Origin: Syntrophomonadaceae bacterium
GTDB taxonomy: Bacteria; Bacillota; Dethiobacteria; DTU022
DNA length: 37,596 nt
Direction: 5' to 3'
Assembly (NCBI GenBank): GCA_003552365.1
Contig: PUKR01000172.1
Span: 1-37,596, forward strand
In this document: positions 15,675-33,313 of the stretch, in pieces
Position numbering within the stretch: position 1 is the stretch's first letter
How the letters are laid out: every line of letters starts with the position of its first letter
Notes under the pieces: model-generated
Told to the model about the DNA's origin: nothing
The model's database searches: none
Seen by the model: only the letters and a program-made list of their open reading frames with translations
Made by a program: the position numbers and the translations under genes

Positions 15675-16258
15675 CCTCTCTTGTTAAACCAGGCTGGAAT
15701 TTGCATCCGTGTAAAAAAATCAAAAAGCAGTCCCAGTGGAAGCCCGACCACGTTGAAGTAACATCCGTCAATTTTTTCCACGAATAAGGCAGCCCGGTCT
15801 TGAATCCCGTAGGCCCCGGCCTTGTCCATTGGTTCACCGGTGGCAATGTAGCTGTTTATCTGATCTTCTCTTAAGTGCTTCAGCCAGACATAAGTTTCAG
15901 AAAAACCATTTTCATAAAAGCCGGTTGCCGCATCAACAAGAGCCAATCCTGAAATTACCAGGTGCTTTGTACCGCTTAGCTGTCTTAACATCCGGCGGGC
16001 ATCCTTCTCATCAGCAGGTTTCCCCATTACCTCGGTACCGGAAAATACTGCCGTATCGGCTGAAAGAACATAGCCGCCTTCTACTTTTTCAGAAACTGAT
16101 AGCGCTTTATTTAAGGCCAGCCTGGCCACCATTTCGCTGGCAGGCACTCCTTTTTCCATACTCTCCTGGATAGTGGGTTCAATTATGGTAAAAGGAATCC
16201 CCACCTGGCAAAGCAGGTTGGCCCGTCGGGGTGAAGAAGAAGCCAAAATCAGCATCAT
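15671..16258 (-). CDS. maf: Maf-like nucleoside triphosphate pyrophosphatase (septum formation protein)
   Basis: Typical Maf motifs are present: LILASSSPRR...LL, SADTAV, and GKP...A...L...SG..H.V.SG. The C-terminus reads KAGAYGIQ. Confidence 0.9.
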   Translation of the reverse strand: MMLILASSSPRRANLLCQVGIPFTIIEPTIQESMEKGVPASEMVARLALNKALSVSEKVEGGYVLSADTAVFSGTEVMGKPADEKDARRMLRQLSGTKHLVISGLALVDAATGFYENGFSETYVWLKHLREDQINSYIATGEPMDKAGAYGIQDRAALFVEKIDGCYFNVVGLPLGLLFDFFTRMQIPAWFNKRG

Positions 16259-16818
16259 TGCACCCCCCCTGCATTTGTTTGTTTTATCATCCTGGAAGTA
16301 ACCCCTTCCAGGTAATTAGCGGCGAGGCCTGTGAAAATTCCGGTTGGGACAGAAAGGAGGATCAAAAAAGGAAAATAACCCATAAGCAGGTCAAAACTTG
16401 CTATAATCACACTGGCCATAGAAAGTTGGACCAGGTTGTGCACTGCGGCACCGACCACGCTCACTGAAAGCAGGCTGACCATGCCTTTATTGCGAAGCAC
16501 AAGAACCAGGGACATGGCCAGGGCACTGGCCGCCCCGGCGGTAATACTCAACCAGAACCCAAAACCGAAGAGGCCGCCAATAAAAATACTGCCCAGGATT
16601 GACCTGAGGACGGCCAGTAACAAACCGCTTCGCAACCCAAACAAAACCAGGGTCAGCAAGGTAATAATATTGGCCAGCCCAATCCTTACCCCCGGCACAG
16701 GCATCGGAAGAGGCATGGCCGCTTCCACGGTGTGGATTACCACCGCAAAAGTAACCAGCAGGGCCATGTAAATTAAATATCTTAAACGGCTTTGCATTTG
16801 CAAACCCGGTTTATCCAT
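16255..16818 (-). CDS. Gx transporter / heptaprenyl diphosphate synthase component I family membrane protein
   Basis: This 187 aa polytopic protein contains VEAAMPLPMPVPGVRIGLANIITL, characteristic of the Hpre_diP_synt_I family that often accompanies ApbE and Rnf genes. Its stop overlaps the maf start. Confidence 0.65.
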   Translation of the reverse strand: MDKPGLQMQSRLRYLIYMALLVTFAVVIHTVEAAMPLPMPVPGVRIGLANIITLLTLVLFGLRSGLLLAVLRSILGSIFIGGLFGFGFWLSITAGAASALAMSLVLVLRNKGMVSLLSVSVVGAAVHNLVQLSMASVIIASFDLLMGYFPFLILLSVPTGIFTGLAANYLEGVTSRMIKQTNAGGVQ

Positions 16819-16861
16819 CTTATTACCCCTCTACAATGCTCGAGCAAAAAGACCTTTAGAG

Positions 16862-17947
16862 TTACTGCAATTCGACAACGTCTGCAATCCCGCTCGAGAC
16901 CTCAATTTCCAGATCCGGGGTGACCAGGATCCCCTCCACTCCTGCTTTTTGCTCTATCAAATCCATCCCCTGTACCGGGCCAAGAATAAACAAAGTTGTA
17001 GAAAGCACATCGGCTTCCAAAACAGATTCAGCTAAAATAGTAATGCTGGCCAGATCTTCGGTCGGCATCCCGGTATCGGGATCAAGAATATGGTGGTAGC
17101 GAGTTTCGTTTTCTGTGAAGGAACGTTCATAGTCACCGGAAGTAGCTACCATCTGATCAGATACAGGAATAACTGCAATCATCTCCTGTTCCTGCCGGGG
17201 ATTGCGCACCCCGATTCGCCATGGTTCTCCATCAGGCCTGCTACCGATAACCCCAATATCCCCCCCGGCATTTACAAATGCATGCTCCACCTCTTTTTGT
17301 AGAAGCATTTCGATAGCCTGGTCAACAATGAAACCCTTGGCAATACCGCCCAGCTCAAGGGCCATACCTTCTTCGGACAAATAGATTGTTGACGCTTCAT
17401 GATCAAGTTCTATTTTTTCATAATCAACCAGGGGCAGCTTTTCTTCAAGCTGCCCGGCAGAAGGAACCCGGTAATCATGTTCCAAAAACCCCCATAAGTC
17501 AGTTATTGGAGCAATAGTGGGATCGAACGCGCCGTCACTGAGTTCGGCATACTCCAGGGCCTTCTCGGTCACATAAAAAACTTCTTTGCTTACTTCAACC
17601 GGTTTTTTCCCTGCCTGTTCATTTACCCTGTAAACGTCGCTGTCTTCAAGAGTCCGGCTAAAGAGAGCTTCCAGGCGCTCCATTTCATCAAAAACCTGGT
17701 CCTTAATTTGGGCGGCATATCTTTCACCGATGGTTTGAAAACGTAAATCCACCACCGTATCCATGGTAATTTGAGTATATTCATAGCTATCAAGGGCATA
17801 ATAAGCGTTGTAATAAAAATATCCGCCCAGGATAATTACTACAACCAGAGGAATAATATAAATAGGCTTGATATATTTCTTCCGGAGAGATTTATCTTGA
17901 TTATTGCCTTGCTCCGAGCTTTGCATATACATACCTAAAGGGCCCAC
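16862..17947 (-). CDS. apbE: FAD:protein FMN transferase ApbE with N-terminal membrane anchor
   Basis: ApbE motifs seen are MDTVV, GAFDPTIAP, GGIAKGF, NAGGDI and ATSGDYER. The start is uncertain among GTG 17947, ATG 17932 and ATG 17926. Confidence 0.9.
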   Translation of the reverse strand: MGPLGMYMQSSEQGNNQDKSLRKKYIKPIYIIPLVVVIILGGYFYYNAYYALDSYEYTQITMDTVVDLRFQTIGERYAAQIKDQVFDEMERLEALFSRTLEDSDVYRVNEQAGKKPVEVSKEVFYVTEKALEYAELSDGAFDPTIAPITDLWGFLEHDYRVPSAGQLEEKLPLVDYEKIELDHEASTIYLSEEGMALELGGIAKGFIVDQAIEMLLQKEVEHAFVNAGGDIGVIGSRPDGEPWRIGVRNPRQEQEMIAVIPVSDQMVATSGDYERSFTENETRYHHILDPDTGMPTEDLASITILAESVLEADVLSTTLFILGPVQGMDLIEQKAGVEGILVTPDLEIEVSSGIADVVELQ

Positions 17948-17971: not shown

Positions 17972-19960
17972 TTAGCGACCAAAATAAAAGATAACCAGCA
18001 TTACACCGCCAAGCAGTAAAGCCAGGATCAACTGGTCAAAATTCAGGTTTTTTGAAGTCCACTCAACCGGATTAAACCGGAGCCATTTTGCCAGACCGCT
18101 CCTTTCAACCTCAGCTTCTTCATCTTGTCCGGACCTGTCAGCCATTCGCCGCATCGCACTTCCGGTTTTCATGTAACCTTCATCTATACTTTCATCCAAA
18201 CTCCTGGAGCGATAAGCAATTTTTTTCGCTGCTTCACCGGTCTTAGCATAGCTTTGATCTATGCTTTCATCCAGGCTCTTGGTACGGTAAGCAATTCTTT
18301 TCGCCGCATCACCGGTTTTAGCATAGCTTTCATCTATGGTTTCGTCAAGAATTCGCGTCCGCTCGGCCAAACCGCGACCGATTTCAGCGGAACGTTCAAA
18401 AGCGGTATCAATGCCTTTATCCATGGCAGTAATATACTGGCAGAATTCATAAAGTTTCCGGCCCGATCTCATGTAGAAATTATCTACAGAAGAATCAATC
18501 GAGGTTCCATAATGACAAAACCGATTATAGACGCCCTGGCCAAGGGGTTTAAAAATTAAGTACTCCACGCTAACCCACGGAGGCAGGTGAATGCCTTTCT
18601 TCAGTAATGAAGATAAATTTAAGAAAAGCAGTAACCCGGCAATGCCAAGTTGAAGGGCTCCCCAGATCCCGCTGGTGGTATAAATATTATGAACCTCAGA
18701 AGCATAAGGGATTAAAGGCGATACCAGTTGAGGATAAACACCCAGGATAATACAGAAAGCAGCAGTCCCTACAATGGCTACCTGGCTGGCCAGCGAAGTT
18801 TTATTTTTAACTTCAGCCCGCCCCTTGATAAAACCAAAACCGATCAGCTTGCAAAATGAGGCAGCGGTCCCGATGCTGGCGATCATTAACATGATTTCTG
18901 CTGGTCCCAGATCATAAAAAGCATACTTTAAGAGGTACTTGCTGACATATCCGTTAAACAGCGGAATACCGGCAATAGCAAGGGCCCCAACCACTCCGCC
19001 AAATGTAACCAGCGGCATCGCCTGCCAGATACTTTGTTTTTTAGCTTCTTCTTCCTCGGAATCCTCGTGGATTAAATCGTGCAGGTCTTCAGTTCCGGTA
19101 GCATGCAAAACTGCTCCCACACTCATAAATAAAAGCGCTTTATACAACATGTGGTTAACCACATGCAAAAGCGCACCGTCTGTGGCAAGTTCGGTTGCCA
19201 AACCCACACCTGCGACCATGTAACCAACCTGGCTGATAATATGATAAGAAAGCAAGCGGCGCATATTGTGCTGCAGCATAGCCATGGTAACCCCGGCAAC
19301 AGCCATAGAAGCTCCCATGTACATAATCACTTCGTTGGGAGGCAAGATCCTGGCAATGGCAAATACCCCAATTTTTGTAGTTAATCCGGCCAAAATAACA
19401 CTGGAAGGGAAATTAGCGGAGGGGTACCCCCGGGCTACCCATATATGCAGGGGCAAGAAAGCAGCTTTAAAACCAAAGCCAACTATAAAGAAGGTTAACC
19501 CACCCTGCGGGGCCTGCAAAATAAAATTGCCTGCTTCCTGGTAGTGCAGAAGAATGCCAAGCAAAACTATCAGTCCACCTGCCAGGTGAAACGAAAGGAA
19601 ATATAACCCGGCATAGATAGCATCAGGGGTTTTTCGCAGCAAGATCAGCCCGGCTGTTGACAAAGTAAGCATTTCCCAGAAAATAAAAAGAGTAATAAAA
19701 TTATCGGAAAAAACAATACCTATAGCGCTGGCCAAAGCAGCAAGGGCCACCGCCTGTTCGCTTGGCTTTGAATGCTGCAACCCGTAAAGCAAGGACAATG
19801 AACCGACCAGGGTAAAACCAAGGACGGCAATTCTGCTGTAGGGGTGTTCATCAAAAGAAATTGGTGCTAAAACAGCATCCCCGACAACATAACTGCCCAG
19901 CTCAATTCCGGTCCAACCGTAATAAGCAAGGTAGATTAAAGTCCCAATTACCCCGATCAT
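17972..19960 (-). CDS. NuoL/MrpA-like antiporter-type membrane subunit (fourth of four) with long repeat-containing C-terminal arm and terminal TM anchor; probably starts upstream at a non-canonical codon (up to 20050)
   Basis: Conserved antiporter features are the TM5 Glu (FIFWEML), the TM7 Lys (GLTTKIGVFA), and HVVNHMLYKALLF. The motif WVARGYPSANFPSS replaces the usual WLPxAHxxAPxPxS. The C-terminal ~200 aa are hydrophilic repeats followed by KNLNFDQLILALLLGGVMLVIFYF. The 30 in-frame codons upstream encode a missing TM1 (IFVIAGIGIPLLLIPGVLF). Confidence 0.85.
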   Translation of the reverse strand: MIGVIGTLIYLAYYGWTGIELGSYVVGDAVLAPISFDEHPYSRIAVLGFTLVGSLSLLYGLQHSKPSEQAVALAALASAIGIVFSDNFITLFIFWEMLTLSTAGLILLRKTPDAIYAGLYFLSFHLAGGLIVLLGILLHYQEAGNFILQAPQGGLTFFIVGFGFKAAFLPLHIWVARGYPSANFPSSVILAGLTTKIGVFAIARILPPNEVIMYMGASMAVAGVTMAMLQHNMRRLLSYHIISQVGYMVAGVGLATELATDGALLHVVNHMLYKALLFMSVGAVLHATGTEDLHDLIHEDSEEEEAKKQSIWQAMPLVTFGGVVGALAIAGIPLFNGYVSKYLLKYAFYDLGPAEIMLMIASIGTAASFCKLIGFGFIKGRAEVKNKTSLASQVAIVGTAAFCIILGVYPQLVSPLIPYASEVHNIYTTSGIWGALQLGIAGLLLFLNLSSLLKKGIHLPPWVSVEYLIFKPLGQGVYNRFCHYGTSIDSSVDNFYMRSGRKLYEFCQYITAMDKGIDTAFERSAEIGRGLAERTRILDETIDESYAKTGDAAKRIAYRTKSLDESIDQSYAKTGEAAKKIAYRSRSLDESIDEGYMKTGSAMRRMADRSGQDEEAEVERSGLAKWLRFNPVEWTSKNLNFDQLILALLLGGVMLVIFYFGR
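18125..18349 (-). repeat. three in-frame tandem 75 bp repeats encoding 25 aa units (LDESIDxSYAKTGxAAKxIAYRxxS) within the arm of the fourth antiporter-like subunit
   Basis: The units span 18349-18275, 18274-18200 and 18199-18125. I translated them by hand as LDETIDESYAKTGDAAKRIAYRTKS, LDESIDQSYAKTGEAAKKIAYRSRS and LDESIDEGYMKTGSAMRRMADRSGQ. More degenerate copies extend upstream to about 18470. Confidence 0.9.
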
Positions 19961-20181: not shown

Positions 20182-22221
20182 TCAATTGCCGTACGAAAAA
20201 ACTATAAATAATATCACTCCAAGAACAAAAGCCAGGAGCAGGTTGTCAAAATTAAGGTTTTTGATATTCCATTGATCCTGGTCCCACCAAAAAATACTGC
20301 TGCGAAACTGTTCCTTTAACCTGCGCTCCCGTTCCAGTCCTTTTCCTGTAAAGTAATAAGCCGACTGTCCGGCTTCATCCAGCGATGGTTCAGCTTCCTG
20401 CCCAGGATTATCCAGGTAAATCAAGGATTGCTCGTTGCTGCTGCTGCTATGTTCATAAAACTGCCCCAGGGCCATATCATTGATGCTGACCTCACGGAAA
20501 AAAAAAGACAGGACCGCTCGAGGCAGCGGTTCAAACACGAGTTTTTGAATGCTTAACCAGGCTGGCGGCTGCCATTCAAACCAGCCCCTGGAAACTGCCG
20601 GCAGGTAAATAAACAGGGCTAACAGGACAACAACCAGCACTGCCTCTAGGGGTTGCCAGGCGAAAAACTGGAAACCATGCAGGTATTCGATGCTTGAAGC
20701 GGCAAAATCATAGAGATGAGCTGCCGGCAATATAAAAACGTCAAGGAGCAAGTTTGGAGAAATGCCAATTCCTATCACCAAAAGAGCAAAAATAACAATC
20801 ACGAAATTAACCGATGGCGCAATCCGGTATTCCTGATCTAAATCTTCAGGGACAGGACCCAAAAAGACACCCTTAAAAAGCTTTAAAAAATAGCATATTG
20901 TTAATGCACTGGTAACTACGAAAAACCGCTCTGCCACAAAAATCCCGTAAACTTCGTGATGCTGGTATGCATATAAAAGAGCATCGTGCACCAAAGTTTT
21001 ACTGGCAAACCCGTTAAAACCGGGAATTCCTGCAATGCCAAGGGCAGCTATAGCAAAAGTAATTGCCACCAGGGGCATCTTCCGGGCCATCCCCCCGAGG
21101 CGGGATAAGTCCAGCTCGTGGGTATACATATATACTACACCAATCATAATAAAAAGCCCGGCTTTAAAAATAGCATGGTTGGCAATGTGGTAGAGCGAGC
21201 CGGAAAAACCCATTGCCCCGTCCGCTCCCATCAGCATGGCAACTCCTATCCCGGTTACAATATAACCCATTTGACTTATACTGCTGTAGGCTAATATCCG
21301 TTTAGTGTTACTTTGCAGCAAGGCCATAATCGCTCCGGCCAGCATGGTCACAATGCCAATCCACATTAAAATATTTCCACTGTTAAATACGTAAACCCAT
21401 TCCACTTCATTACCGGCTCCGGCGGGCTGAAATAGAATCAAGCTGACTCTTAAAACACCATAAGCACCGGCCTTTATCATAATCCCTGACAACAGGGCAC
21501 TGGCCGGAGAAGGGGCTACCGGGTGGGCCAGGGGAAGCCAGATGTGCAGCGGAACTATTCCGGCTTTAATACCAAAACCGATCATAAATAAAACAAAAAT
21601 AGCCGTGCGCTGGTTTCCCAATTCTTCCAACACCGGGACCATGTTAAGGTGACCGGCACTGCCAAAAAACAAGAGGATGGCAAACAGCAAAGAAAGACCG
21701 CCAATAATAGCCATGTAAAGATATAGCGATCCCGCTTTTAAAGCTTCCTGGTTTTGCTTGTGGATTACCAGGACAAAAGAGCTGAAAGTCATGATCTCGA
21801 AAAAAATAAACAAAGAAAACAGGTCGCCGGCAAAAATTACCCCCAGTATTGCACCGAGCGTAAAAATGAAAAAACTATAATAACGGCACAAATGGTGCTC
21901 GTGCTCCATGTAGGAAAAAGAAAAAATAGTTGCAAGGACCCAGATCAGGGTAATTAATAATGCAAATATCCAACCGAACAAATCAACCCTGAAATTTAAG
22001 TTGAACTGCATTAGCTCAATTAAATCGCAGCCTACTTCACCGACAAGCACCAGCGGTAAAAGCCAGATCACTCCGCCCAGTGAAAACAGCGCTGAGCATA
22101 ATACAGCAGCCTTGCGAGTGACCATCCGCTCAACAGGAACAAAATAAAGCACTATCCCGGTTAGCATAGGGACTAAAACCAGGTACAATGGTACAGAAGT
22201 ACTGTATGCTAAAGCTTCCAC
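20182..22221 (-). CDS. NuoL/MrpA-like antiporter-type membrane subunit (third of four) with C-terminal arm and terminal TM anchor
   Basis: The 679 aa protein shows FIFFEIMTF, WLPLAHPVAPSPASALLSGIMIKAGAYG and HIANHAIFKAGLF. The C-terminal ~130 aa are hydrophilic and end in KNLNFDNLLLAFVLGVILFIVFSY. The start is GTG, 8 nt after GGGGG. Confidence 0.85.
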   Translation of the reverse strand: MEALAYSTSVPLYLVLVPMLTGIVLYFVPVERMVTRKAAVLCSALFSLGGVIWLLPLVLVGEVGCDLIELMQFNLNFRVDLFGWIFALLITLIWVLATIFSFSYMEHEHHLCRYYSFFIFTLGAILGVIFAGDLFSLFIFFEIMTFSSFVLVIHKQNQEALKAGSLYLYMAIIGGLSLLFAILLFFGSAGHLNMVPVLEELGNQRTAIFVLFMIGFGIKAGIVPLHIWLPLAHPVAPSPASALLSGIMIKAGAYGVLRVSLILFQPAGAGNEVEWVYVFNSGNILMWIGIVTMLAGAIMALLQSNTKRILAYSSISQMGYIVTGIGVAMLMGADGAMGFSGSLYHIANHAIFKAGLFIMIGVVYMYTHELDLSRLGGMARKMPLVAITFAIAALGIAGIPGFNGFASKTLVHDALLYAYQHHEVYGIFVAERFFVVTSALTICYFLKLFKGVFLGPVPEDLDQEYRIAPSVNFVIVIFALLVIGIGISPNLLLDVFILPAAHLYDFAASSIEYLHGFQFFAWQPLEAVLVVVLLALFIYLPAVSRGWFEWQPPAWLSIQKLVFEPLPRAVLSFFFREVSINDMALGQFYEHSSSSNEQSLIYLDNPGQEAEPSLDEAGQSAYYFTGKGLERERRLKEQFRSSIFWWDQDQWNIKNLNFDNLLLAFVLGVILFIVFSYGN

Positions 22222-26135: not shown

Positions 26136-26474
26136 TTACGAGTGAGATTTCAAGGTGGCAACCACCGCGGCAATTGCTACAAAAAGCACAGTAGCTTCAC
26201 CCAGGGTATCAAAAGCACGGTAATCAATGATCACGCTGCTGACTATATTCACCGCCCCGGTATCGACAACCCCCTGTTCCATGTAGCGGACAGGGATCTC
26301 GTTAAATACCGGGTTGTTGGGATCGCCAAAAGGCGGCATCTCGGCAACAGTAAAGCTAAAGAAAAAGCCAATCAAGCCGACAAGCAATATTGTAAACACA
26401 CCCCTTGCCTGGAGGCGCAGAAGGTAGCGCATCGCAAAAACAGCCGCGATAATAATAAACAGAATATCTTCCAC
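26136..26474 (-). CDS. MbhE-like small membrane protein (corresponds to the MrpA C-terminal segment)
   Basis: The sequence AVNIVSSVIIDYRAFDTLGEATVLFVAIAAV matches the N-V-V-x-x-I-L-x-D-[FY]-R-G-x-D-T-L-G-E segment of MrpA C-terminal and MbhE proteins. The start is GTG, 8 nt after GAGGGGGG. Confidence 0.7.
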   Translation of the reverse strand: MEDILFIIIAAVFAMRYLLRLQARGVFTILLVGLIGFFFSFTVAEMPPFGDPNNPVFNEIPVRYMEQGVVDTGAVNIVSSVIIDYRAFDTLGEATVLFVAIAAVVATLKSHS

Positions 26475-26499: not shown

Positions 26500-26751
26500 C
26501 TATTCAGCCCGCCTGGTTTTGCTGATTGTCGCGATCAGCAGCAAGGTAGTAACCCCGGTACCAAGGGCAGCTTCCACCATGGCCACATCGGGTGCGCTCA
26601 GCTGCTGCCAGATAATGGCCATGATCAAACCAAAGGAAGCAAAAACAATTACCGCGCTGAGCATATCACGAATCTGGGCCACGGCGATAGCACATACCAC
26701 TAAAAATAACAGTAATAAAGCATTCAACACTTCTGTTAAAATGTCAGTCAT
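26500..26751 (-). CDS. DUF4040 / MbhD-like membrane protein
   Basis: IRDMLSAVIVFASFGLIMAIIWQQLSAPDVAMVEAALGTGVTTLL carries the APDVA-x-x-EA-x-x-G signature. I prefer the ATG at 26751 (8 nt after AGGAG, ATGACTGA overlap with the mnhG stop) over the track's GTG at 26760. Confidence 0.75.
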   Translation of the reverse strand: MTDILTEVLNALLLLFLVVCAIAVAQIRDMLSAVIVFASFGLIMAIIWQQLSAPDVAMVEAALGTGVTTLLLIATISKTRRAE

Positions 26752-27064
26752 TTGAATCACTCCTGCCTATCTGCGGCTTGATCCCCGTTGTATAAGCGAC
26801 CCGGGCAATAACATGGGCTGCCGTCGGGTTAGTGATCAATACAAATAAAATCAGTAGAGCAAGCCTGATCGCCACCGCCATTTCACTTTGCAGCGCAAGG
26901 GAAAGCAGCACCAAACCGGCTCCGAGTGTATCACACTTTGATGTGGCATGCAGGCGGTTGTATACATCAGGCAGGCGCAGCAAACCAACTATAGCTACAA
27001 CCAGGAAAAAAAGACCGATGATCATTGAAACGATTGACAAGATGTACAAAATAGTCTCGAGCAT
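26744..27064 (-). CDS. mnhG: Mrp subunit G
   Basis: GLLRLPDVYNRLHATSKCDTLGAGLVLL is the MnhG/PhaG signature. The protein is 106 aa with three TM segments. Confidence 0.85.
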   Translation of the reverse strand: MLETILYILSIVSMIIGLFFLVVAIVGLLRLPDVYNRLHATSKCDTLGAGLVLLSLALQSEMAVAIRLALLILFVLITNPTAAHVIARVAYTTGIKPQIGRSDSND

Positions 27065-27072: not shown

Positions 27073-27354
27073 TTAATCCAGCGCCCCTTTCTCCAGGTAC
27101 TTGGCAACACCGATGGTAAAAATAAAACCCATTAAAGCATAAATCATGGCAATATCAAGGAAGTAAACCTGTTCATAGATCCTGGCTATCAGGGTAATAA
27201 TGATCAGCGTATTTGTCGTAATAATATTAATAGCGACAACCCGGTCGGGCGCGGTGGGCCCGGCAAGCGCCCTGATCATGGCAACAAATATTGTCAGCAT
27301 AACCAGGATTGCCCCTACCGGAAATAAAATATCAAGGATTTGCTCATAAATCAC
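27073..27354 (-). CDS. mnhF: Mrp subunit F
   Basis: IRALAGPTAPDRVVAINIITTN is the MnhF signature. The GTG start overlaps the mnhE stop as TAGTG. Confidence 0.85.
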   Translation of the reverse strand: MIYEQILDILFPVGAILVMLTIFVAMIRALAGPTAPDRVVAINIITTNTLIIITLIARIYEQVYFLDIAMIYALMGFIFTIGVAKYLEKGALD

Positions 27355-27857
27355 TACTTATCGCCCTCCATTTCTTTAAGCCTGGTCATCAGGTGCCAGT
27401 CCTGGATGGCAATACCACTTTCTTTGGTGAGGGCATGGACCAGGTAGTCTTTTTCGTCGGCAAGGACTGTCAATGTCCCCGGGCACATAGTAATAGAGTT
27501 GCCGAAAAGAGTGCGACTGCCAGTGGTCTCCAGATCCACCTCAACCGAAACGAGGTTGGGGTAAATCGGCATTTTCGGGTGCAGCACAAGCCAGGCTATC
27601 TGGAAATTGGCAATAAATATTTCTTTAACCAGCACCAGTATATAGCCGGTTAGCCAGAGCACATTTTTCAAGGTAACCGCCGGCCTTTCCTGGGAAGTGA
27701 TCAACAGGGTCCGATTAAAGTAGACTACAAAGGCCGCCGACACCAGGCCAACAACCAGCTGTGGCAAATCGAAGGTCCCGCTTACAGCAATCCAAAACCC
27801 TAATAACAAGAGGGTAAAACCGATATAATTAAGCCAATTGCTTTTCAATTTATCCAT
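27354..27857 (-). CDS. mnhE: Mrp subunit E
   Basis: The sequence reads WLNYIGFTLLLLGFWIAVSGTFDLPQLVVGLVSAAFV...ITMCPGTLTV, where ITLTPGT-like is the MnhE signature. I prefer the ATG at 27857; the track ORF begins at TTG 27923 with no RBS. Confidence 0.8.
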   Translation of the reverse strand: MDKLKSNWLNYIGFTLLLLGFWIAVSGTFDLPQLVVGLVSAAFVVYFNRTLLITSQERPAVTLKNVLWLTGYILVLVKEIFIANFQIAWLVLHPKMPIYPNLVSVEVDLETTGSRTLFGNSITMCPGTLTVLADEKDYLVHALTKESGIAIQDWHLMTRLKEMEGDK

Positions 27858-27935
27858 CACCAGGTTTCGAATTAGATTTTTTTTAAAATAAAATATAATA
27901 AATATTTCACATGCCAGGCTCAAAAATGAAAACTT

Positions 27936-28808
27936 CTAAGTGCCCTTTTCAGACGATACAGCTTCTGCTTTCTCTTTATTTTGTTCGATCGCACCGGGCA
28001 TTATCGGCAGCGCAGTCCGCGGGTAAATTGTCCCTGGCGGACATACCGGGACACACCTGCCGCAATCATCACATTTATCGATATCGATAACTGCAAGCTT
28101 ATCATCCATCTCTATAGCTTCCTGCGGACACTCTTTTACACAAGCCCTGCAGCCTATGCATCCAACCGAACAGGCCTTTGAAACTGTCTTACCCCGATCC
28201 TGCGAACTGCACAAAACCAGGTGACCTTGCCCTGAACGCCTGGGGAGAGTCTGGATCAGATCTCGCGGGCAGGCTTCTACGCATAATCCGCAGCCGGTGC
28301 ACGCATCAGGATCAACAATTGGCAAACCATGAGATCCGATTTCTATCGCTTCAAACGGGCAGACCCTAACACAATTACCCAGCCCGAGGCAGCCGTAACC
28401 ACAAGCTTTAAATCCTCCGTTAAACCTCCCCGCTACCTCGCAATCCTCTACTCCGTCATATATAAACAAGTCAGCAGCATGTTCGTTATCACCGATACAA
28501 AATACGGTCGCTATTAGCGGTTCCGAGTCGGTTACTTCGAGTCCCAGTTCTTCAGCGATAGCCCGGGTGGTTTCTTCTCCACCGGGAATACATGCGTTAG
28601 CTGCCACTTCTCCTTTGACTACCGCCGCCGCAAAATTAACACAACCGGCATAACCGCAAGCTCCGCAATTAGCTCCTGGTAAGATATCTTTAACTGCATC
28701 CACTCTCGGATCAGTTTTTACCGCAAAAACACGTGCTGCAATAGACAATAGCAGTCCAAAAAGAAGGCCGATCAAGCCTAAAGCAATAATTGCATATGCT
28801 ATCTGCAC
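27936..28808 (-). CDS. rnfB: Rnf complex subunit B (membrane-anchored polyferredoxin)
   Basis: An N-terminal TM is followed by LPGANCGACGYAGC and several CxxCxxCxxxCP clusters (CTGCGLCVEACP, CIGCRACVKECP, CDDCGRCVPVCP). Confidence 0.93.
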   Translation of the reverse strand: MQIAYAIIALGLIGLLFGLLLSIAARVFAVKTDPRVDAVKDILPGANCGACGYAGCVNFAAAVVKGEVAANACIPGGEETTRAIAEELGLEVTDSEPLIATVFCIGDNEHAADLFIYDGVEDCEVAGRFNGGFKACGYGCLGLGNCVRVCPFEAIEIGSHGLPIVDPDACTGCGLCVEACPRDLIQTLPRRSGQGHLVLCSSQDRGKTVSKACSVGCIGCRACVKECPQEAIEMDDKLAVIDIDKCDDCGRCVPVCPPGTIYPRTALPIMPGAIEQNKEKAEAVSSEKGT

Positions 28809-28853: not shown

Positions 28854-29435
28854 CTACAGCGTTAACATACCACTAAAGCCAAGGAAGGCCAACGACAATA
28901 TTCCGGCAGTGATTAAAGTAATTGCGGACCCCTGCAGGGCTTCCGGAATTTTTGCCATCTCTAATCTTTCCCGAATTCCGGCCATGATAACAAGGGCCAG
29001 TGAAAACCCGATCGAAGCGGCAATGCCAAAAACAACCGCTTCAACAAAAGTAAATTCTTCCCTGACGGCAAGCAAAGCAACCCCCATAATCGCGCAATTT
29101 GTGGTAATTAACGGTAAAAAGATCCCCAAACCCTGGTACAGGGTGGGACTTATTTTTCGCAGCGCCGTTTCTACCAGTTGAACCAGTGAAGCAATAACCA
29201 AAATAAACGTGACAATCTGCAGATATTCCAACTCATATGGCACCAAGACAAAAGTATTAAGAATCCAGGTTACAAGCGTAGCCATGGTCATTACGAATAT
29301 CACGGCCATACTCATACCGATTGCGGTTTCCATTTTACGAGAAACTCCGATAAATGGGCAAATCCCCAAAAACCGTTGCAAAACAAAATTGTCGACCAAA
29401 ATATAGATAAAAATTATTGCCAGCAGTCTTTCCAT
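28854..29435 (-). CDS. rnfA: Rnf complex subunit A
   Basis: The 193 aa protein shows NFVLQRFLGICPFIGVS and LGIFLPLITTNCAIMG, the RnfA/NqrE signature. Confidence 0.95.
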   Translation of the reverse strand: MERLLAIIFIYILVDNFVLQRFLGICPFIGVSRKMETAIGMSMAVIFVMTMATLVTWILNTFVLVPYELEYLQIVTFILVIASLVQLVETALRKISPTLYQGLGIFLPLITTNCAIMGVALLAVREEFTFVEAVVFGIAASIGFSLALVIMAGIRERLEMAKIPEALQGSAITLITAGILSLAFLGFSGMLTL

Positions 29436-29499: not shown

Positions 29500-30129
29500 T
29501 TATTTAATATTAAGCTTCTTAAAAATTACGTTAAAGATGCCCAACAGCAATCCCAGGGCAATAAAAGCTCCGGGGGGTTGTGCAAACAGGCCCATTGGCT
29601 CAAATCCCGGCCCAAAAAGGTAGACTGCGCTTTCCGGGTCGGGCCCCATCAGGGTGCCGTGTCCGGCAACTTCACGAACAAAAGCCAATATCCCCAGGGC
29701 CAGGGTAAAACCAATGCCAACCCCGATGCCGTCAATCAAAGATCGAATTACCGGCTGCTTGCCTGCAAAAGCTTCAGCCCTGCCCAGTATAACACAGTTA
29801 ACTACAATTAAGGGGACAAAAATGCCCAACGCTTCGTGAAGTGCCGGTTGAAAAGCCTCTAAAACCATATCAATTACAGTTACAAATGTTGCGATCACTA
29901 CAATAAAGCATGGTATCCGCACCTGGGGCGGAATAAATTTTTTGAGACTGGAGATCACCACATTTGAAGCAACCAGTACTGCGGTTGCAGCAATTCCCAT
30001 CCCCACTCCATTTATAAAAAAGGCAGTAACACCCAGCACCGGGCACAATCCAAGCAGCAATTTGAAAACCGGGTTTTCGCGAACGATACCCCTGGTCAAG
30101 TCTTGAACATAAACACTTTTATCACTCAA
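29500..30129 (-). CDS. rnfE: Rnf complex subunit E
   Basis: ENPVFKLLLGLCPVLGVT and LGIFVPLIVVNCVILGRAE are RnfE/NqrD signatures. I prefer the TTG at 30129 (8 nt after GGAGGTGA, overlapping the rnfG stop as TTGAGTGA); the track ORF starts at GTG 30147. Confidence 0.93.
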   Translation of the reverse strand: MSDKSVYVQDLTRGIVRENPVFKLLLGLCPVLGVTAFFINGVGMGIAATAVLVASNVVISSLKKFIPPQVRIPCFIVVIATFVTVIDMVLEAFQPALHEALGIFVPLIVVNCVILGRAEAFAGKQPVIRSLIDGIGVGIGFTLALGILAFVREVAGHGTLMGPDPESAVYLFGPGFEPMGLFAQPPGAFIALGLLLGIFNVIFKKLNIK

Positions 30130-30976
30130 CTGTTCCGTCACCTCCACTGCCTTCTTCTACAGGTGTGCTCTTTAGGGCATTCTCCACGGCAAAAATAATT
30201 CGCTCCGCACTCAAAGTAGCCCCGGTCTGTGTATCGACATTCAAACTTTGTTCCTCAACAATTTTTTCCGGGATTAATGGATAAGATTCTACAAAGTACG
30301 CATCAGTTTCGTTTTGTTCAATAACCTCAATACGTTCCAGCCTTCCCTCCGAGATTTCAACTTCAACCGTCAAAGTTCCCCTGGTTCCTTCCGCACTTCC
30401 ATGGTATACACCGTCTTCAACTGAAGGGATATCAGAAGAGGCTACTTCCTTACCCAGAAAATGTTCACCGATATTAACCACTGTCCTGCGTATCGAACCA
30501 ATCATTGCTGCGGTGCTCTCAGTAGCGCCACTAACTGCATCAACATCCTCACCATCCTGGATTTGATCATCATAGCCTTTACCGATAAATTGTTCCTGGA
30601 AGTCACTGGTTGTAATCACATCACCGATACCAGGGGTTTCAGAGTGGCTCGTAACTATAATGCCTTTAATAATTCCTTCATCATCCACCGCAAGATTATA
30701 TCTTATTGTTCCGTCATAACCCTGCGTCGATACTGTAGCCATTATTCCCAGCAATTCGCCTTCCTGATCGTAAACCAGATCAAAGCTTTCTCCGTCTACT
30801 GTTTCGCTCTCAAAATTATCAAGGTCGGGGAAAAATTTTTCCAGGGCTTCGATATATTCTCTTTCTTCTCTTTCCCGGATCACCGGTTCCGTTAAATTAT
30901 GTAACCCGGTAAGCAGGGCAGCGGATAACATAGCCACCAATACCAGCACTGAAGAAAGGCGGATAATGTTATGCAC
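30122..30976 (-). CDS. rnfG: Rnf complex subunit G with an additional C-terminal FMN-binding domain
   Basis: The protein has an N-terminal TM, a first FMN_bind domain ending in DAVSGATESTAAM, and a second FMN_bind-like domain (GTLTVEVEISEGRLERIEVIEQNET...VDTQTGATLSAERIIFAVENAL). It is 284 aa against roughly 200 aa for typical RnfG. The GTG start overlaps the rnfD stop. Confidence 0.9.
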   Translation of the reverse strand: MHNIIRLSSVLVLVAMLSAALLTGLHNLTEPVIREREEREYIEALEKFFPDLDNFESETVDGESFDLVYDQEGELLGIMATVSTQGYDGTIRYNLAVDDEGIIKGIIVTSHSETPGIGDVITTSDFQEQFIGKGYDDQIQDGEDVDAVSGATESTAAMIGSIRRTVVNIGEHFLGKEVASSDIPSVEDGVYHGSAEGTRGTLTVEVEISEGRLERIEVIEQNETDAYFVESYPLIPEKIVEEQSLNVDTQTGATLSAERIIFAVENALKSTPVEEGSGGDGTVE

Positions 30977-31949
30977 TTTTTCTCACCTCCCCACCAAACT
31001 GTCGGGGTGTTGTAAAATTATCAATAATGGGGGTTACTGCGTTCATCAGCAGGATTGCAAAAGAAACCCCTTCCGGATATGTGCCCCACAACCTGATCAG
31101 CATGGTGATCAAGCCACAACCAATTCCAAAAATAATACGCCCCTGTGGAGTAACCGGAGTAGTAACCATATCGGTGGCCATAAAAATAGCCCCGATCATT
31201 ACTCCTCCTGCCAGGACATGGAATAACCCGGTAAGCAGGTAGTTTTCATAAAATCCTCCACCAAAAATCGTGCCCAGGACAAAGACCGTCCCAATAAATC
31301 CACCGGGAATCCTAAAATCAATGTGGCCCCTGTAAATTAACCATATACCCCCTATCAATAAAGCCAGGGCAGAGGTTTCTCCCAGGGATCCTCCTATATT
31401 TCCAATAAATATTTCCGGTAAGCTGTGGGCCAGCGCCTCCTGCGGGGCGGCCAAAACAGTGGCCCCTGTTACAGCGGAAACATCTGCGGTAAAAGCAAAA
31501 GGCTGCGGCAAGGCCCAGACATCCCCGGCCATATATCCACCCCAGGAAACAACCAGGATCGCCCGGCCAACCAGTGCCGGATTAAAAATGTTATAACCAA
31601 TTCCGCCAAAAACCTGTTTACCTATAATAATTGCCGAAACGGAACCCACAACTGCTGTCCACCAGGGAATAGTCGGGGGAAGGGTCAAAGCTAAAAGCAA
31701 ACCCGTGACAGCAGCGCTGCCGTCTCCCAAAAAGTTATCGCGTTTTCTTAGCCATATAGCTTCGACAACTATGGCAGCGGTAACCGATAGAACCATAATC
31801 AACAAAGCCCTGTATCCGAATAACAACACCGCCATTAAAGCTGCCGGAAAAAGGGCTACCATAACATCGAACATAATGCTCTGCACACTATCACTTGAAC
31901 GTATATGAGGTGAAGAAGATACTACTAATTTTTCGCTAATTTCAAACAC
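30969..31949 (-). CDS. rnfD: Rnf complex subunit D
   Basis: The sequence shows SSSPHIRS, a flavinylation-type motif VSAVTGATVLA, and FMATDMVTTP. The protein is 326 aa and starts with GTG. Confidence 0.95.
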   Translation of the reverse strand: MFEISEKLVVSSSPHIRSSDSVQSIMFDVMVALFPAALMAVLLFGYRALLIMVLSVTAAIVVEAIWLRKRDNFLGDGSAAVTGLLLALTLPPTIPWWTAVVGSVSAIIIGKQVFGGIGYNIFNPALVGRAILVVSWGGYMAGDVWALPQPFAFTADVSAVTGATVLAAPQEALAHSLPEIFIGNIGGSLGETSALALLIGGIWLIYRGHIDFRIPGGFIGTVFVLGTIFGGGFYENYLLTGLFHVLAGGVMIGAIFMATDMVTTPVTPQGRIIFGIGCGLITMLIRLWGTYPEGVSFAILLMNAVTPIIDNFTTPRQFGGEVRKSA

Positions 31950-31969
31950 ATCCTTCCCCGATCAAAGGC

Positions 31970-33313
31970 CTACTTGTTCTGTTTCTTCCTGTTCATTATT
32001 TCAGCCTTGGCAATTCTAATCCACTGGGTTAAAGGTATTTTAGACGGGCAAACATACGAACAACACCCGCACTCAAAACAGTCAAGTGCGTTTAATTGTT
32101 CAGCTTTTTTGTAATCGCCAAATTCTGTTACCTGGGCTATAGTAGTAGGCAGAAGCTGCACCGGGCAGGAATCGACACATTTGGCACAGCGAATACATGG
32201 GCTGCTTTCCACCAAATGCACATCTTCATCAGTCAAAGCAAGAATGCCGGAAGTCCCTTTTATAACCGGAATATCAGGCGTTGGCTGGGCTAAACCCATC
32301 ATCGGCCCGCCAACAACCAGCTTTACCGTGGACTCACTCATTCCCCCGCAATATTCAATAACATCGGAAACTAGAGTCCCTATCCTGACCTGGAGGTTTT
32401 TGGGCTCTTTTATCCCCGAACCGGTAACAGTAAGCGTTCTTTCCACCAGAGGTTTTCCCTGCCGGATCGCTTGAGTAATAGCCACTGCAGTACCAACATT
32501 ATGATTCACCACTCCGACTTCCAGGGGCAGGGCTCCTTCTGCCGGAACTACCCTGCCCGTAGTAGCATAAATTAACATTTTTTCCGCACCCTGCGGGTAT
32601 TTTGTATGCAGGGAAATTACCTGGATATTCTGCTCGCCGGCAACAGCATCTTCCATAACCTTAATTGCATCCGGTTTGTTATCTTCAATTCCGATGATGC
32701 CTCTATCTGCGCCAAGCGCTTTTATCATTGCCTTCAAACCAAAAACAATTTCTTCCGTCTTCTCAAGCATGACCCGGTGATCGGCAGTTAGATAAGGTTC
32801 ACACTCTGAACCGTTTATAATTACCAGATCAATTGGCTTGTCTTCCGGTGGAGACAACTTAACGTGGGCAGGAAAAGTAGCTCCCCCCAGGCCAACAATA
32901 CCGGCTTCTCTAACAATTTTTCTGATATCTTCCGGTGAAAGCTTATCTAAATCAGGATTTGGTTTTATATTATCATCCCACTGATCCATACCATCCGATT
33001 CAATGGTTACCGCGTTAATTTTCACTCCGAGCGGATGGCTGTGCTGTCCAATATCAACCACCGTTCCCGATATCGAAGAATGAACCGGGGCAGAAACAAA
33101 CCCTTTGTTATCGCCCAGTTTTTGACCGGTTCTTATCTCAGCTCCCTTTTCAATTTTTTCAACATCGGCAAGTAACTCGCAGGGGGCTCCGATGTGCTGC
33201 TGCATGGGTATAACCACTTTTTCTGGAAGCGGCATCTTTTCAATGGCCAGCGATGATGTAAATTGTTTTTGATCTTCAGGGTGGACTCCACCCATAAAAA
33301 GTTCCTTGGCCAT
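31970..33313 (-). CDS. rnfC: Rnf complex subunit C (NADH-binding, 2x[4Fe-4S])
   Basis: The sequence shows GIVGLGGATFPAHVKL, INGSECEPYLTADHR, CIRCAKCVDSCP and CFECGCCSYVCP. The protein is 447 aa. Confidence 0.95.
   Translation of the reverse strand: MAKELFMGGVHPEDQKQFTSSLAIEKMPLPEKVVIPMQQHIGAPCELLADVEKIEKGAEIRTGQKLGDNKGFVSAPVHSSISGTVVDIGQHSHPLGVKINAVTIESDGMDQWDDNIKPNPDLDKLSPEDIRKIVREAGIVGLGGATFPAHVKLSPPEDKPIDLVIINGSECEPYLTADHRVMLEKTEEIVFGLKAMIKALGADRGIIGIEDNKPDAIKVMEDAVAGEQNIQVISLHTKYPQGAEKMLIYATTGRVVPAEGALPLEVGVVNHNVGTAVAITQAIRQGKPLVERTLTVTGSGIKEPKNLQVRIGTLVSDVIEYCGGMSESTVKLVVGGPMMGLAQPTPDIPVIKGTSGILALTDEDVHLVESSPCIRCAKCVDSCPVQLLPTTIAQVTEFGDYKKAEQLNALDCFECGCCSYVCPSKIPLTQWIRIAKAEIMNRKKQNK

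What the first reader, a model, noticed from the sequence alone, without database searches (positions are those of the whole stretch)
16255..33313. Rnf complex operon continuous with an Mbh-ordered Mrp module: a candidate Rnf-Mrp ion-translocating supercluster
What the sequence shows:
- Nineteen same-strand genes are packed with overlaps or gaps mostly under 65 nt.
- rnfC-D-G-E-A-B ends at 27936, and the next gene, mnhE, starts 12-78 nt later.
- After mnhE come mnhF, mnhG, a DUF4040/MbhD-like gene, an MbhE-like gene, mnhB, mnhC and four NuoL/M/N-type antiporter-like subunits, then apbE and a Gx-family membrane protein.
- Several junctions are stop/start overlaps: GTGCATAA, TTGAGTGA, TAGTG twice, and ATGACTGA.

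Established knowledge:
- Mrp modules occur either as stand-alone Na+/H+ antiporters or bolted onto NiFe-hydrogenase-derived redox modules (Mbh, Mbx/Mbs, complex I, Fpo).
- The E-F-G-D-E-B-C-D gene order seen here is the Mbh-type order.
- rnfCDGEAB is the clostridial Rnf order.

No NuoB/D/H/I or MbhJ/L/M-like connector subunits are present, so Rnf is the only redox module in the operon.

Inference: this is either a physical Rnf-Mrp assembly or an obligately co-expressed pair that interconverts the Na+ and H+ gradients generated by ferredoxin:NAD+ oxidoreduction. I am not aware of a characterised system of this architecture.
Basis: partly seen in the sequence, partly recalled or inferred. Interest (0 to 1): 0.88.

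Follow-up and report, generated by a model that had tools for sequence, protein, structure and literature searches.

The report
Rnf operon beside a stand-alone Mrp antiporter
This region holds an ordinary ferredoxin-driven sodium pump (Rnf), an ordinary multi-subunit sodium/proton antiporter (Mrp) and the Rnf maturation genes; they are neighbours in one lineage of soda-lake anaerobes, and relatives show two separable units, not one new machine.

Summary

The supercluster reading is only partly supported.
- **Conservation:** rnfCDGEAB-mrp-apbE-Gx sits in a conserved valS-folC...maf-radC neighbourhood in the Dethiobacteria-type soda-lake and serpentinite MAGs examined.
- **Separable units:**
  - moaC lies between rnfB and mnhE in one outgroup.
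  - A Na+/solute symporter gene plus moaC lies there in another.
  - A third outgroup keeps moaC-mrp-apbE-Gx-maf with no rnf.
  - One closer relative has a strong hairpin followed by a short U-run straight after rnfB.
  - The window and its three nearest relatives share a promoter- or operator-like 17-nt element in the gap.
- **Mrp type:** the same E-F-G-MbhD-MbhE-B-C-D-D-D cluster stands alone, with no redox genes found nearby, in about 70 genomes from many phyla. The Mbh-like order is therefore not evidence of a redox-coupled module.
- **No adaptor:** no Rnf-specific adaptor subunit was found.

Most likely there are two separate complexes, probably co-expressed here, that share the Na+ cycle. 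Rnf pumps Na+ and Mrp captures H+ at high pH. This Rnf/Mrp pairing has already been proposed for Methanosarcina acetivorans. Interest is about 0.3.

The parts
31970..33313 (-). rnfC (447 aa), the NADH/FMN and 2x[4Fe-4S] subunit
   Evidence: Pfam RnfC_N, Complex1_51K, SLBB and Fer4. TIGR01945 scores 565 bits against a cut-off of 246. A 228-nt intergenic region lies upstream, after folC.
30969..31949 (-). rnfD (326 aa)
   Evidence: Pfam NQR2_RnfD_RnfE, E=2.5e-112. TIGR01946 scores 336 against a cut-off of 207. Flavinylation-type TGAT motif at residue 161.
30122..30976 (-). rnfG (284 aa), with two FMN_bind domains
   Evidence: Pfam FMN_bind, two stretches. SGAT at residue 149 and TGAT at 251. TIGR01947 scores 87.5, below its cut-off of 102. 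Overlaps rnfD by 8 nt.
29500..30147 (-). rnfE (start at GTG 30147, or at TTG 30129 overlapping the rnfG stop)
   Evidence: Pfam Rnf-Nqr. TIGR01948 scores 238.5 against a cut-off of 213.4. TTGAGTGA junction.
28854..29435 (-). rnfA (193 aa)
   Evidence: Pfam Rnf-Nqr. TIGR01943 scores 268 against a cut-off of 229.
27936..28808 (-). rnfB (290 aa), an N-terminal FeS domain plus polyferredoxin
   Evidence: Pfam FeS plus four Fer4 stretches. NF005503 scores 266.7 against a cut-off of 252.
27858..27935 (-). rnfB-mnhE intergenic region. It is AT-rich, has no terminator, and holds the conserved element CATGTGAAATATTTATT at 27897-27913.
   Evidence: No terminator-like site lies in the gap. The fold has z=0.06. 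The element is invariant at 17 of 18 positions in the window, L008, L009 and L010, while the flanks diverge. It occurs only here in the window and only in those three of the 87 loci held at that point. The reading as an extended -10 (TGTGnAATAAT) or an operator is my inference.
27354..27857 (-). mnhE/mrpE (167 aa from ATG 27857)
   Evidence: Pfam MNHE, E=2e-29. Homologues are 163-165 aa.
27073..27354 (-). mrpF
   Evidence: Pfam MrpF_PhaF. TAGTG overlap with mnhE.
26744..27064 (-). mnhG/mrpG
   Evidence: Pfam PhaG_MnhG_YufB. TIGR01300 scores 95.4 against a cut-off of 63.1.
26500..26760 (-). MbhD/DUF4040-like gene, a piece of the MrpA C-terminal domain
   Evidence: Pfam MbhD. NCBIfam aligns it to positions ~600-690 of MrpA models.
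26136..26474 (-). MbhE-like gene, a piece of the MrpA C-terminal domain
   Evidence: Pfam MbhE. NCBIfam aligns it to positions ~700-790 of MrpA models.
25694..26083 (-). mnhB/mrpB
   Evidence: Pfam MnhB.
25324..25692 (-). mnhC/mrpC (NuoK-like)
   Evidence: Pfam Oxidored_q2. The best NCBIfam hits are MrpC models.
23846..25348 (-). D1, an antiporter-like subunit (MrpD type, 500 aa)
   Evidence: Pfam Proton_antipo_M. Conserved channel residues are kept. Orthologues sit in the first position in nearly all related clusters.
22243..23784 (-). D2, an antiporter-like subunit (MrpD/NuoM type, 513 aa)
   Evidence: Pfam Proton_antipo_M and Proton_antipo_N.
20182..22221 (-). D3, a long antiporter-like subunit (679 aa) with a C-terminal arm and a terminal TM helix (MrpA-N/NuoL-like)
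   Evidence: Pfam. The best solved match is MbhH (6cfw_H), then MrpA (7qru_A). Hydropathy shows a ~130-aa non-TM stretch before the last TM helix. Present in L002, L003, L004 and L009; reduced to a 40-aa remnant in L001.
17972..19960 (-). D4, a second long antiporter-like subunit (662 aa from ATG 19960, probably extending to about 20053)
   Evidence: Pfam Proton_antipo_M. PDB best match is MbhH. Conserved residues are kept and the C-terminal arm is homologous to that of D3. The in-frame upstream TM helix is conserved in L001 and L009. D4-type subunits are the usual third subunit in stand-alone clusters of many phyla.
16862..17947 (-). apbE (FAD:protein FMN transferase), 24 nt after D4
   Evidence: Pfam ApbE, E=8e-92. 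Gap. Its targets are the [ST]GA[TS] motifs in RnfG and RnfD.
16255..16818 (-). Gx-family membrane protein (Hpre_diP_synt_I). Its stop overlaps the maf start.
   Evidence: Pfam PF07456, with a weak ECF_trnsprt hit. apbE-Gx-maf is conserved in L001, L002, L004 and L022.

Best explanation
The region encodes three ordinary things side by side.
1. A canonical clostridial-order Rnf complex (rnfCDGEAB), a ferredoxin:NAD+ oxidoreductase and primary ion pump.
2. A complete stand-alone Mrp (CPA3) cation/proton antiporter of the anaerobe type. MrpA is split into separate MbhD-like, MbhE-like and long antiporter-like pieces. This genome carries four intact antiporter-like subunits.
3. The Rnf maturation pair apbE-Gx.

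They lie in a gene neighbourhood (valS-folC-rnf-mrp-apbE-Gx-maf-radC) inherited within a Dethiobacteria-type lineage of soda-lake and serpentinite anaerobes.

Rnf and Mrp are separate membrane complexes and separable transcription units. In this genome they are probably also read through as one long transcript.

**Shown**
- The gene content.
- Conservation of the neighbourhood.
- Separability of rnf and mrp in relatives.
- Intact channel residues in all four antiporter-like subunits.
- Flavinylation motifs in RnfG and RnfD.

**Inferred from established knowledge of the families**
- Rnf oxidises reduced ferredoxin and exports Na+. This builds the membrane potential and Na+ gradient for a Na+-dependent ATP synthase. 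In a syntrophic acetate oxidiser it may run in reverse.
- Mrp uses that membrane potential to exchange cytoplasmic Na+ for external H+. This keeps the cytoplasm below the external pH of about 10.
- ApbE attaches FMN to RnfG and RnfD.

The linkage is therefore functional, through a shared Na+ cycle, and not structural.
For: **Family calls:**

**Neighbourhood conserved**
- The full neighbourhood is seen in L001, L002 and L022. The parts that their contigs cover agree in L003 and L008-L011, which all show rnfB-mnhE.
- The closest genome hits are soda-lake sediment MAGs labelled Syntrophomonadaceae. One protein hit is labelled Dethiobacteria.

**Separable units**
- L022: rnfB-moaC-mnhE.
- L089: rnfB-SSF-moaC-mnhE.
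- L004: moaC-mrp-apbE-Gx-maf with no rnf.
- L003: a 10-bp GC hairpin followed by UUUU after rnfB; the MFE of the folded 71-nt stretch is -24 kcal/mol, z=-2.8.
- A conserved 17-nt element lies in the gap of the window, L008, L009 and L010.

**The Mrp type stands alone elsewhere**
- L005, L006, L007 and L088 have full precomputed Pfam contexts with no redox partner.
- About 70 genome loci from Proteobacteria, Acidobacteria, Chloroflexi, Nitrospirae, haloarchaea and others have E...C-D1-D2-(D3 or D4) and no Rnf gene within 10 kb.

**Functional subunits**
- All four antiporter-like subunits keep the invariant TM5 Glu, TM7 Lys, TM8 Lys, TM11 His/His/Lys and TM12 Lys.
- RnfG and RnfD carry [ST]GA[TS] motifs.

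**Literature**
- 'Ca. Contubernalis alkaliaceticus' (Dethiobacteria) has Rnf HUE98_01685-01710 beside multisubunit antiporter genes HUE98_01720-01765, and a Na+-type ATP synthase c subunit (PMC10608574).
- A role for Mrp in balancing the Na+/H+ output of Rnf is proposed in M. acetivorans (PMC7399021).
- Anaerobe Mrp clusters with three 'mrpB' genes are described for Natranaerobius (PMC5703873).
Against: - In this window there is no terminator between rnfB and mnhE, and the gap is only 78 nt. In L002 it is only 22 nt. Co-transcription is therefore likely in these genomes, and a tighter coupling than mere neighbours cannot be excluded.
- apbE, which serves Rnf, lies downstream of all the mrp genes, so the Mrp genes sit inside an Rnf-related bracket.
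- No expression, ion-specificity or biochemical data exist for this organism.
- The promoter reading of the conserved element is my inference.
- The ion specificity of this Rnf (Na+ or H+) was not tested.
Confidence: 0.72

Rival explanations
1. Rnf and Mrp form one physical respiratory supercomplex. Ferredoxin:NAD+ redox chemistry in Rnf would drive the four antiporter-like modules of Mrp, as the hydrogenase module drives them in Mbh or the Q-module does in complex I.
For: - Same-strand adjacency with no terminator in the window, and a 22-nt gap in L002.
- Adjacency conserved in eight related loci.
- apbE lies downstream of mrp, so Mrp sits inside the Rnf gene set.
- An unusually large number (four) of intact antiporter-like subunits.
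Against: - No connector or adaptor subunit. No NuoH/MbhM-like, NuoB/D-like or novel conserved protein lies in the cluster.
- Unrelated genes (moaC; SSF + moaC) sit between rnfB and mnhE in outgroups.
- The same Mrp-apbE-Gx block exists without rnf.
- There is a terminator-like hairpin in L003.
- Every Mrp subunit type here, including D4, occurs in stand-alone clusters across many phyla.
- From established structures, Rnf couples ion transfer within its own RnfA/D/E core and has no known docking surface for an Mrp arm.
Confidence: 0.04
2. The adjacency is inherited synteny with no specific functional link. Two abundant membrane systems simply sit next to each other in a long co-directional block of housekeeping genes.
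For: - All 35 genes tabulated across the window are co-directional and tightly packed, housekeeping genes included.
- The cluster is embedded in a conserved valS-folC ... maf-radC backbone.
- Intervening genes vary among lineages.
- Only one unrelated lineage (L069, Ca. Fimenecus) shows rnf near this Mrp type, and there it is divergently oriented. One case among about 70 loci is close to chance expectation.
Against: - The neighbourhood persists across considerable divergence (ValS 62%, MnhE 38% identity in L022).
- Both systems handle the same ions in organisms from high-pH, high-Na+ habitats.
- A functional Rnf/Mrp relationship is supported physiologically in M. acetivorans (PMC7399021, PMC2838876).
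Confidence: 0.24

Closest known systems
Clostridial-type Rnf complex (rnfCDGEAB; e.g. Acetobacterium woodii, Thermotoga maritima)
   Same: It has the same six subunits in the same order with the same domains. Flavinylation motifs are present in RnfG and RnfD, and apbE lies in the neighbourhood.
   Different: - RnfG carries two FMN_bind domains, each with a flavinylation motif, and falls just under the TIGR01947 cut-off.
- apbE-Gx is displaced about 10 kb downstream by the mrp genes. In L069 rnfB-Gx-apbE are contiguous.
Anaerobe-type ('group 3'-like) Mrp/CPA3 antiporter with a split MrpA, as annotated MrpEFGBBBCD+DD in NPL-UPA2 (PMC6305446) and with three mrpB genes in Natranaerobius thermophilus (PMC5703873)
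   Same: The order is E-F-G, then three small MrpA-C/MrpB-like genes, then C, then several MrpD-like genes. No redox module is present. Identical clusters stand alone in many phyla.
   Different: This genome and L009 carry four antiporter-like subunits, with both the D3 and the D4 long types. Most relatives carry three, with either D3 or D4.
Mrp module of membrane-bound hydrogenase Mbh (P. furiosus MbhA-H; PDB 6cfw)
   Same: The gene order corresponds to MbhA-H. D3 and D4 have MbhH as their best solved match. The MbhD and MbhE Pfam families hit.
   Different: No MbhI-N equivalents are present: no membrane anchor MbhM and no NiFe or FeS subunits. There are four antiporter-like subunits where Mbh has one.
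Functional Rnf + Mrp pairing in Methanosarcina acetivorans
   Same: A Na+-pumping Rnf and a multisubunit Na+/H+ antiporter are used together. Mrp is proposed to adjust the Na+/H+ ratio for ATP synthesis, and both are co-expressed on acetate (PMC7399021, PMC2838876).
   Different: - There the two are named as separate gene clusters (rnfXCDGEABY and mrpABCDEFG, a group 1 order) and the papers read report no adjacency.
- That Rnf has a cytochrome c subunit.
- Here the two are adjacent in a bacterial alkaliphile lineage.

Membership tests
Rnf complex (ferredoxin:NAD+ oxidoreductase) | Six subunits RnfC, D, G, E, A and B with their characteristic domains | tested here: met
   Pfam. NCBIfam curated cut-offs are passed by C, D, E, A and B. 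G scores 87.5 against 102 but has FMN_bind domains.
Rnf complex (ferredoxin:NAD+ oxidoreductase) | Covalent-FMN attachment motifs in RnfG and RnfD, and an ApbE flavin transferase available | tested here: met
   SGAT149 and TGAT251 in RnfG, and TGAT161 in RnfD. ApbE at 16862-17947.
Rnf complex (ferredoxin:NAD+ oxidoreductase) | Ferredoxin:NAD+ oxidoreductase activity coupled to Na+ or H+ transport | not testable with these tools
   This needs vesicle or proteoliposome assays.
Mrp / CPA3 multisubunit cation:proton antiporter | All of MrpA (N-terminal antiporter-like part and C-terminal part), B, C, D, E, F and G are present | tested here: met
   E, F, G, MbhD-like and MbhE-like (the MrpA C-terminal pieces by NCBIfam alignment), B, C, two MrpD-type subunits and two long MrpA-N-type subunits.
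Mrp / CPA3 multisubunit cation:proton antiporter | Conserved charged channel residues in the antiporter-like subunits (TM5 Glu, TM7 Lys, TM8 Lys, TM12 Lys) | tested here: met
   Invariant E152, K236, K267, H349, H353, K357 and K412 (D1 numbering) in all four subunits. The assignment of these residues to particular helices is from my knowledge of complex I and Mrp.
Mrp / CPA3 multisubunit cation:proton antiporter | Occurs without a redox module (stand-alone) | tested here: met
   The same cluster type has no redox genes in L005, L006, L007 and L088. It has no Rnf gene within 10 kb in about 70 genome loci.
Redox-coupled Mrp-type complexes (Mbh, Mbs/Mbx, complex I, Fpo, FHL) | A NuoH/MbhM-type membrane connector plus NuoB/D-type (MbhJ/L) and NuoI-type (MbhN) subunits in the cluster | tested here: not met
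   No such Pfam family was found among the window's long minus-strand ORFs scanned.
   Immediate adjacency holds in the window, L001-L003 and L008-L011. It is interrupted by moaC in L022 and by SSF + moaC in L089. rnf is absent in L004.
   The window has no terminator but has a conserved promoter- or operator-like element. L003 has a terminator-like hairpin. RNA-level data are not available.
   Every Mrp subunit type, including D3 and D4, is also found in clusters without Rnf. No extra ORF is conserved in the cluster.
   This needs co-purification, blue-native PAGE or cryo-EM.

The most novel reading that the evidence does not exclude
In this Dethiobacteria lineage, Rnf and the four-module Mrp might assemble into one membrane supercomplex, or an obligate functional unit. 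Ferredoxin:NAD+ redox energy would then drive, or be driven by, Mrp-type ion modules. That would be a new class of Mrp-coupled respiratory enzyme without a hydrogenase or complex-I-type connector.
Probability: 0.04. Interest if true: 0.9.

Novelty: new member of a known kind. Interest (0 to 1): 0.3.

Why it matters
If the modest reading is right, the locus is a tidy genomic signature of how strictly anaerobic haloalkaliphiles organise their Na+ economy. These organisms include syntrophic acetate oxidisers and acetogens of soda lakes and serpentinising springs. A primary Na+ pump (Rnf), its flavinylation factors and a large Na+/H+ antiporter are kept together.

That is useful for metabolic reconstructions. 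For example, the 'Ca. Contubernalis' paper lists the same genes twice, as an antiporter and as a putative complex-I membrane arm. It also gives a concrete, testable candidate for co-regulation by pH, Na+ or redox state.

It does not open a new class of respiratory enzyme. Only the low-probability supercomplex reading would do that.

Tried and rejected
- **Riboswitch or leader in the gaps.** An Rfam gathering scan of the window found nothing in 16-34 kb; the only hits were a T-box, a tRNA and the L21 leader elsewhere.
- **D4 as an Rnf-specific adaptor.** Rejected. D4-type subunits are the usual third subunit in stand-alone clusters of many phyla.
- **The RnfG-like gene upstream of mnhE in the NPL-UPA2 MAG (L025) as a second Rnf/Mrp link.** Rejected. 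It sits with a DsbD_TM protein and is better read as a separate flavinylated DsbD-type system. No other Rnf genes are there.
- **The ApbE-like gene upstream of mnhE in L028.** It lies between another run of antiporter-like genes (probably a nuo-type arm) and the mrp cluster. This was not informative.
- **The shared motif as a common regulator site for rnf and mrp.** The 17-nt element does not occur upstream of rnfC or anywhere else in the window.
- **moaC remnants in the longer rnfB-mnhE gaps of L001, L003 and L011.** None were found.
- **Literature.** Searches for 'Rnf-Mrp', 'Mrp-Rnf' and 'Rnf-Mnh' found no paper describing such a complex. The supplements of PMC10608574 did not resolve what HUE98_01715 is.

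Full report
**1. Observation**

The 37.6-kb window is entirely co-directional, with every long ORF on the minus strand.
- The Rnf set: RnfC, RnfD, RnfG, RnfE, RnfA and RnfB.
- The Mrp small subunits: MnhE, MrpF, MnhG, an MbhD/DUF4040 protein, an MbhE-family protein, MnhB and MnhC (NuoK-like).
- Four Proton_antipo_M subunits, here called D1-D4.
- ApbE and a Gx/Hpre_diP_synt_I membrane protein.

RnfC, D, E, A and B pass NCBIfam's curated Rnf cut-offs. RnfG falls just short at 87.5 against 102. The quoted stop/start overlaps sit exactly at rnfD/rnfG, rnfG/rnfE, mnhE/mrpF, mnhC/D1 and mnhG/mbhD. None of the window proteins scanned against Pfam belongs to a NuoB/D/H/I or MbhJ/L/M family.

One qualification applies. 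Tight same-strand packing is a property of the whole window. Gx/maf and maf/radC overlap by 4 nt, and valS/folC are 3 nt apart. Packing alone says little about a functional unit.

**2. Anatomy of the Mrp part**

- The MbhD-like and MbhE-like proteins align to the C-terminal part of MrpA models, at positions ~600-790.
- D3 (679 aa) and D4 (662 aa) are long antiporter-like proteins. Their best solved relatives are MbhH, MrpA, MrpD and MbsH.
- D3 and D4 share a homologous C-terminal extension. It is a long charged, non-TM stretch that ends in a conserved W..KNLNFD motif and a final TM helix. I read this as a NuoL/MrpA-type lateral arm.
- Together with MnhB, C, E, F and G, and the MrpD-type D1 and D2, this is a complete Mrp antiporter with a split MrpA.
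- All four antiporter-like subunits keep the invariant Glu, Lys and His residues of the family, so none looks degenerate.

**3. Relatives**

MnhE homologues of 54-76% identity come from Bacillota or Dethiobacteria MAGs. The closest species-level genomes are soda-lake sediment MAGs labelled Syntrophomonadaceae.

*Where the neighbourhood holds.* L001, L002 and L022 show the full valS-folC-rnfCDGEAB-mrp-apbE-Gx-maf-radC neighbourhood. L003 and L010 show its upstream part, from valS to mrp. The short contigs L008, L009 and L011 show rnfA-rnfB-mnhE onward. The neighbourhood is therefore conserved in this lineage.

*Where rnf and mrp separate.*
- L022 has moaC between rnfB and mnhE.
- L089 has a sodium:solute symporter gene and moaC there.
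- L004 has purL(-)-moaC-mrp-apbE-Gx-maf-radC with no rnf.
- L003, with 54% MnhE identity, has a 321-nt gap. It begins with a 10-bp GC-rich hairpin followed by UUUU; the folded 71-nt stretch has an MFE of -24 kcal/mol and z=-2.8.
- The window, L008, L009 and L010 have 72-88-nt gaps. Their only conserved feature is CATGTGAAATA(A/T)TTATT, invariant at 17 of 18 positions. It occurs nowhere else in the window or in the other loci held at that point. It fits TRTG-N-(T)ATAAT, an extended -10, and contains the palindrome AATAATTATT. Promoter or operator is my inference.

*What the window itself shows.* The window's gap has no terminator and no significant structure. In L002 the gap is only 22 nt. Read-through transcription from rnf into mrp is therefore likely in these genomes.

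**4. The Mrp type is not special to Rnf**

Clusters with the same order stand alone in several loci with full Pfam context: a Spirochaeta MAG (L005), L006, L007 and L088. None has redox genes nearby.

Among the 80 best genome loci found with the MnhE profile, the common architecture is E...C-D1-D2-(D4 or D3). These loci come from Proteobacteria, Acidobacteria, Chloroflexi, Nitrospirae, Desulfobacteria, Lachnospiraceae, haloarchaea and others. No Rnf gene lies within 10 kb of them.

Three apparent exceptions were examined:
- **L069 (Ca. Fimenecus).** An rnf-Gx-apbE operon lies divergent to mrp. One such case among about 70 loci is close to chance expectation.
- **L025.** The RnfG-like gene belongs with a DsbD_TM protein.
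- **L028.** The ApbE-like gene lies between two runs of antiporter genes.

The number of long subunits varies even among close relatives:
- The window and L009 have both D3 and D4.
- L001 has D4 plus a 40-aa D3 remnant.
- L002, L003 and L004 have D3 only.
- L022 has D4 only.

No subunit type is specific to Rnf-linked clusters, so nothing qualifies as an adaptor.

**5. Literature**

- 'Ca. Contubernalis alkaliaceticus' (class Dethiobacteria) has Rnf at HUE98_01685-01710 and multisubunit antiporter genes at HUE98_01720-01765. They are neighbours, but the paper treats them as separate systems. It also lists the same genes as a possible complex-I membrane part, and it infers a Na+-dependent ATP synthase (PMC10608574).
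- 'Ca. Syntrophonatronum acetioxidans' is likewise described with Rnf and Mnh listed separately (PMC6295475).
- In Methanosarcina acetivorans, rnf and mrp are co-expressed. Mrp is proposed to adjust the Na+/H+ ratio generated by Rnf for ATP synthesis (PMC2838876, PMC7399021). The same pairing is invoked for marine sulfate reducers (PMC10553843).
- Anaerobe Mrp clusters with three 'mrpB' genes (Natranaerobius; MrpEFGBBBCD+DD in NPL-UPA2) are already described (PMC5703873, PMC6305446).
- No paper in the library uses 'Rnf-Mrp' for a complex.

**6. Mechanism**

*Shown.* The locus holds a full Rnf gene set with flavinylation motifs (SGAT149 and TGAT251 in RnfG, TGAT161 in RnfD). It also holds an ApbE and a full Mrp with four intact ion modules.

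*Inferred from the known biochemistry of these families and the habitat of the relatives.*
- Rnf acts as the primary Na+ pump. In a syntrophic acetate oxidiser it may instead act as a Na+-driven ferredoxin reducer.
- Mrp acts as the secondary, electrogenic Na+/H+ exchanger. It uses the Rnf-generated potential to capture protons at high external pH.
- ApbE and Gx mature Rnf.

*Evolutionary inference.* L069 has rnfB-Gx-apbE contiguous, and moaC is tightly joined to mnhE in the outgroups. I infer that a moaC-mrp unit came to lie between rnfB and apbE in an ancestor, and that moaC was later lost in the window's clade.

**7. Verdict**

- Two known systems in a lineage-specific, conserved neighbourhood, probably co-expressed and functionally complementary: confidence about 0.72.
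- Mere synteny with no specific functional link: about 0.24.
- A physical Rnf-Mrp machine: about 0.04.

I score it 0.3.

Noticed in passing
window 4931-5222 (-), tRNA at 4978-5052 (-): The T-box leader upstream of leuS scores 111 bits and has a CUC (Leu) specifier. It carries an 88-nt insertion in a stem loop. That insertion is a full tRNA-Ala(GGC) gene with the G3:U70 identity pair (Rfam tRNA 68.9 bits; also called by ARAGORN). A tRNA gene embedded inside a T-box riboswitch is unusual.
   Followed up: partly
window 30122-30976 (-): RnfG is 284 aa and has two FMN_bind domains, each with its own flavinylation motif (SGAT149, TGAT251). The L002 orthologue is 389 aa, and a second tblastn match there suggests a further repeat. 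Typical RnfG has one domain, which probably explains the score just under the TIGR01947 cut-off.
   Followed up: partly
window 19961-20053 (-), upstream of D4: About 31 in-frame codons upstream of the first canonical start of D4 encode a TM-like helix (QIDIFVIAGIGIPLLLIPGVLFGPKVLRYIF). It is conserved at protein level in L001 and L009. In the window and L001 it follows an in-frame ATG-GAG-TGA and has only ATC, ATT or ATA as possible starts. L009 has an in-frame GTG. D4 may therefore use a non-canonical start or recoding.
   Followed up: partly
window 17972-18700 (-), the D4 C-terminal arm: The D4 C-terminal extension contains three tandem ~25-aa repeats (LDE[ST]ID[EQ].Y.KTG.A...[IM]A.R) before the conserved W..KNLNFD motif and the terminal TM helix. 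D3 has a single copy.
   Followed up: no
L001 15593-15712: A 40-aa remnant of the D3 gene lies between D2 and D4 in the closest relative. D3 was therefore recently lost there, and the number of antiporter-like subunits is evolutionarily labile.
   Followed up: yes
window 20079-20182 (-): A possible 33-codon ORF (MTGLDLQMFNYWPFYLVLDFKKILIYNKGIQQR) starts at an ATGA overlap with the D3 stop, in the 221-nt D3-D4 gap. I did not test whether it is conserved.
   Followed up: no
window 10366-10448 (-): A ribosomal protein L21 leader (Rfam RF00559, 38.1 bits, just above the gathering score) lies upstream of rplU.
   Followed up: no
L069 900-10480: In a gut Clostridia MAG (Ca. Fimenecus), an rnfC...B-Gx-apbE operon lies head-to-head with an mrp cluster of the same type. 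It is the only Rnf/Mrp neighbourhood seen outside the Dethiobacteria-type lineage, and it could be chance.
   Followed up: partly
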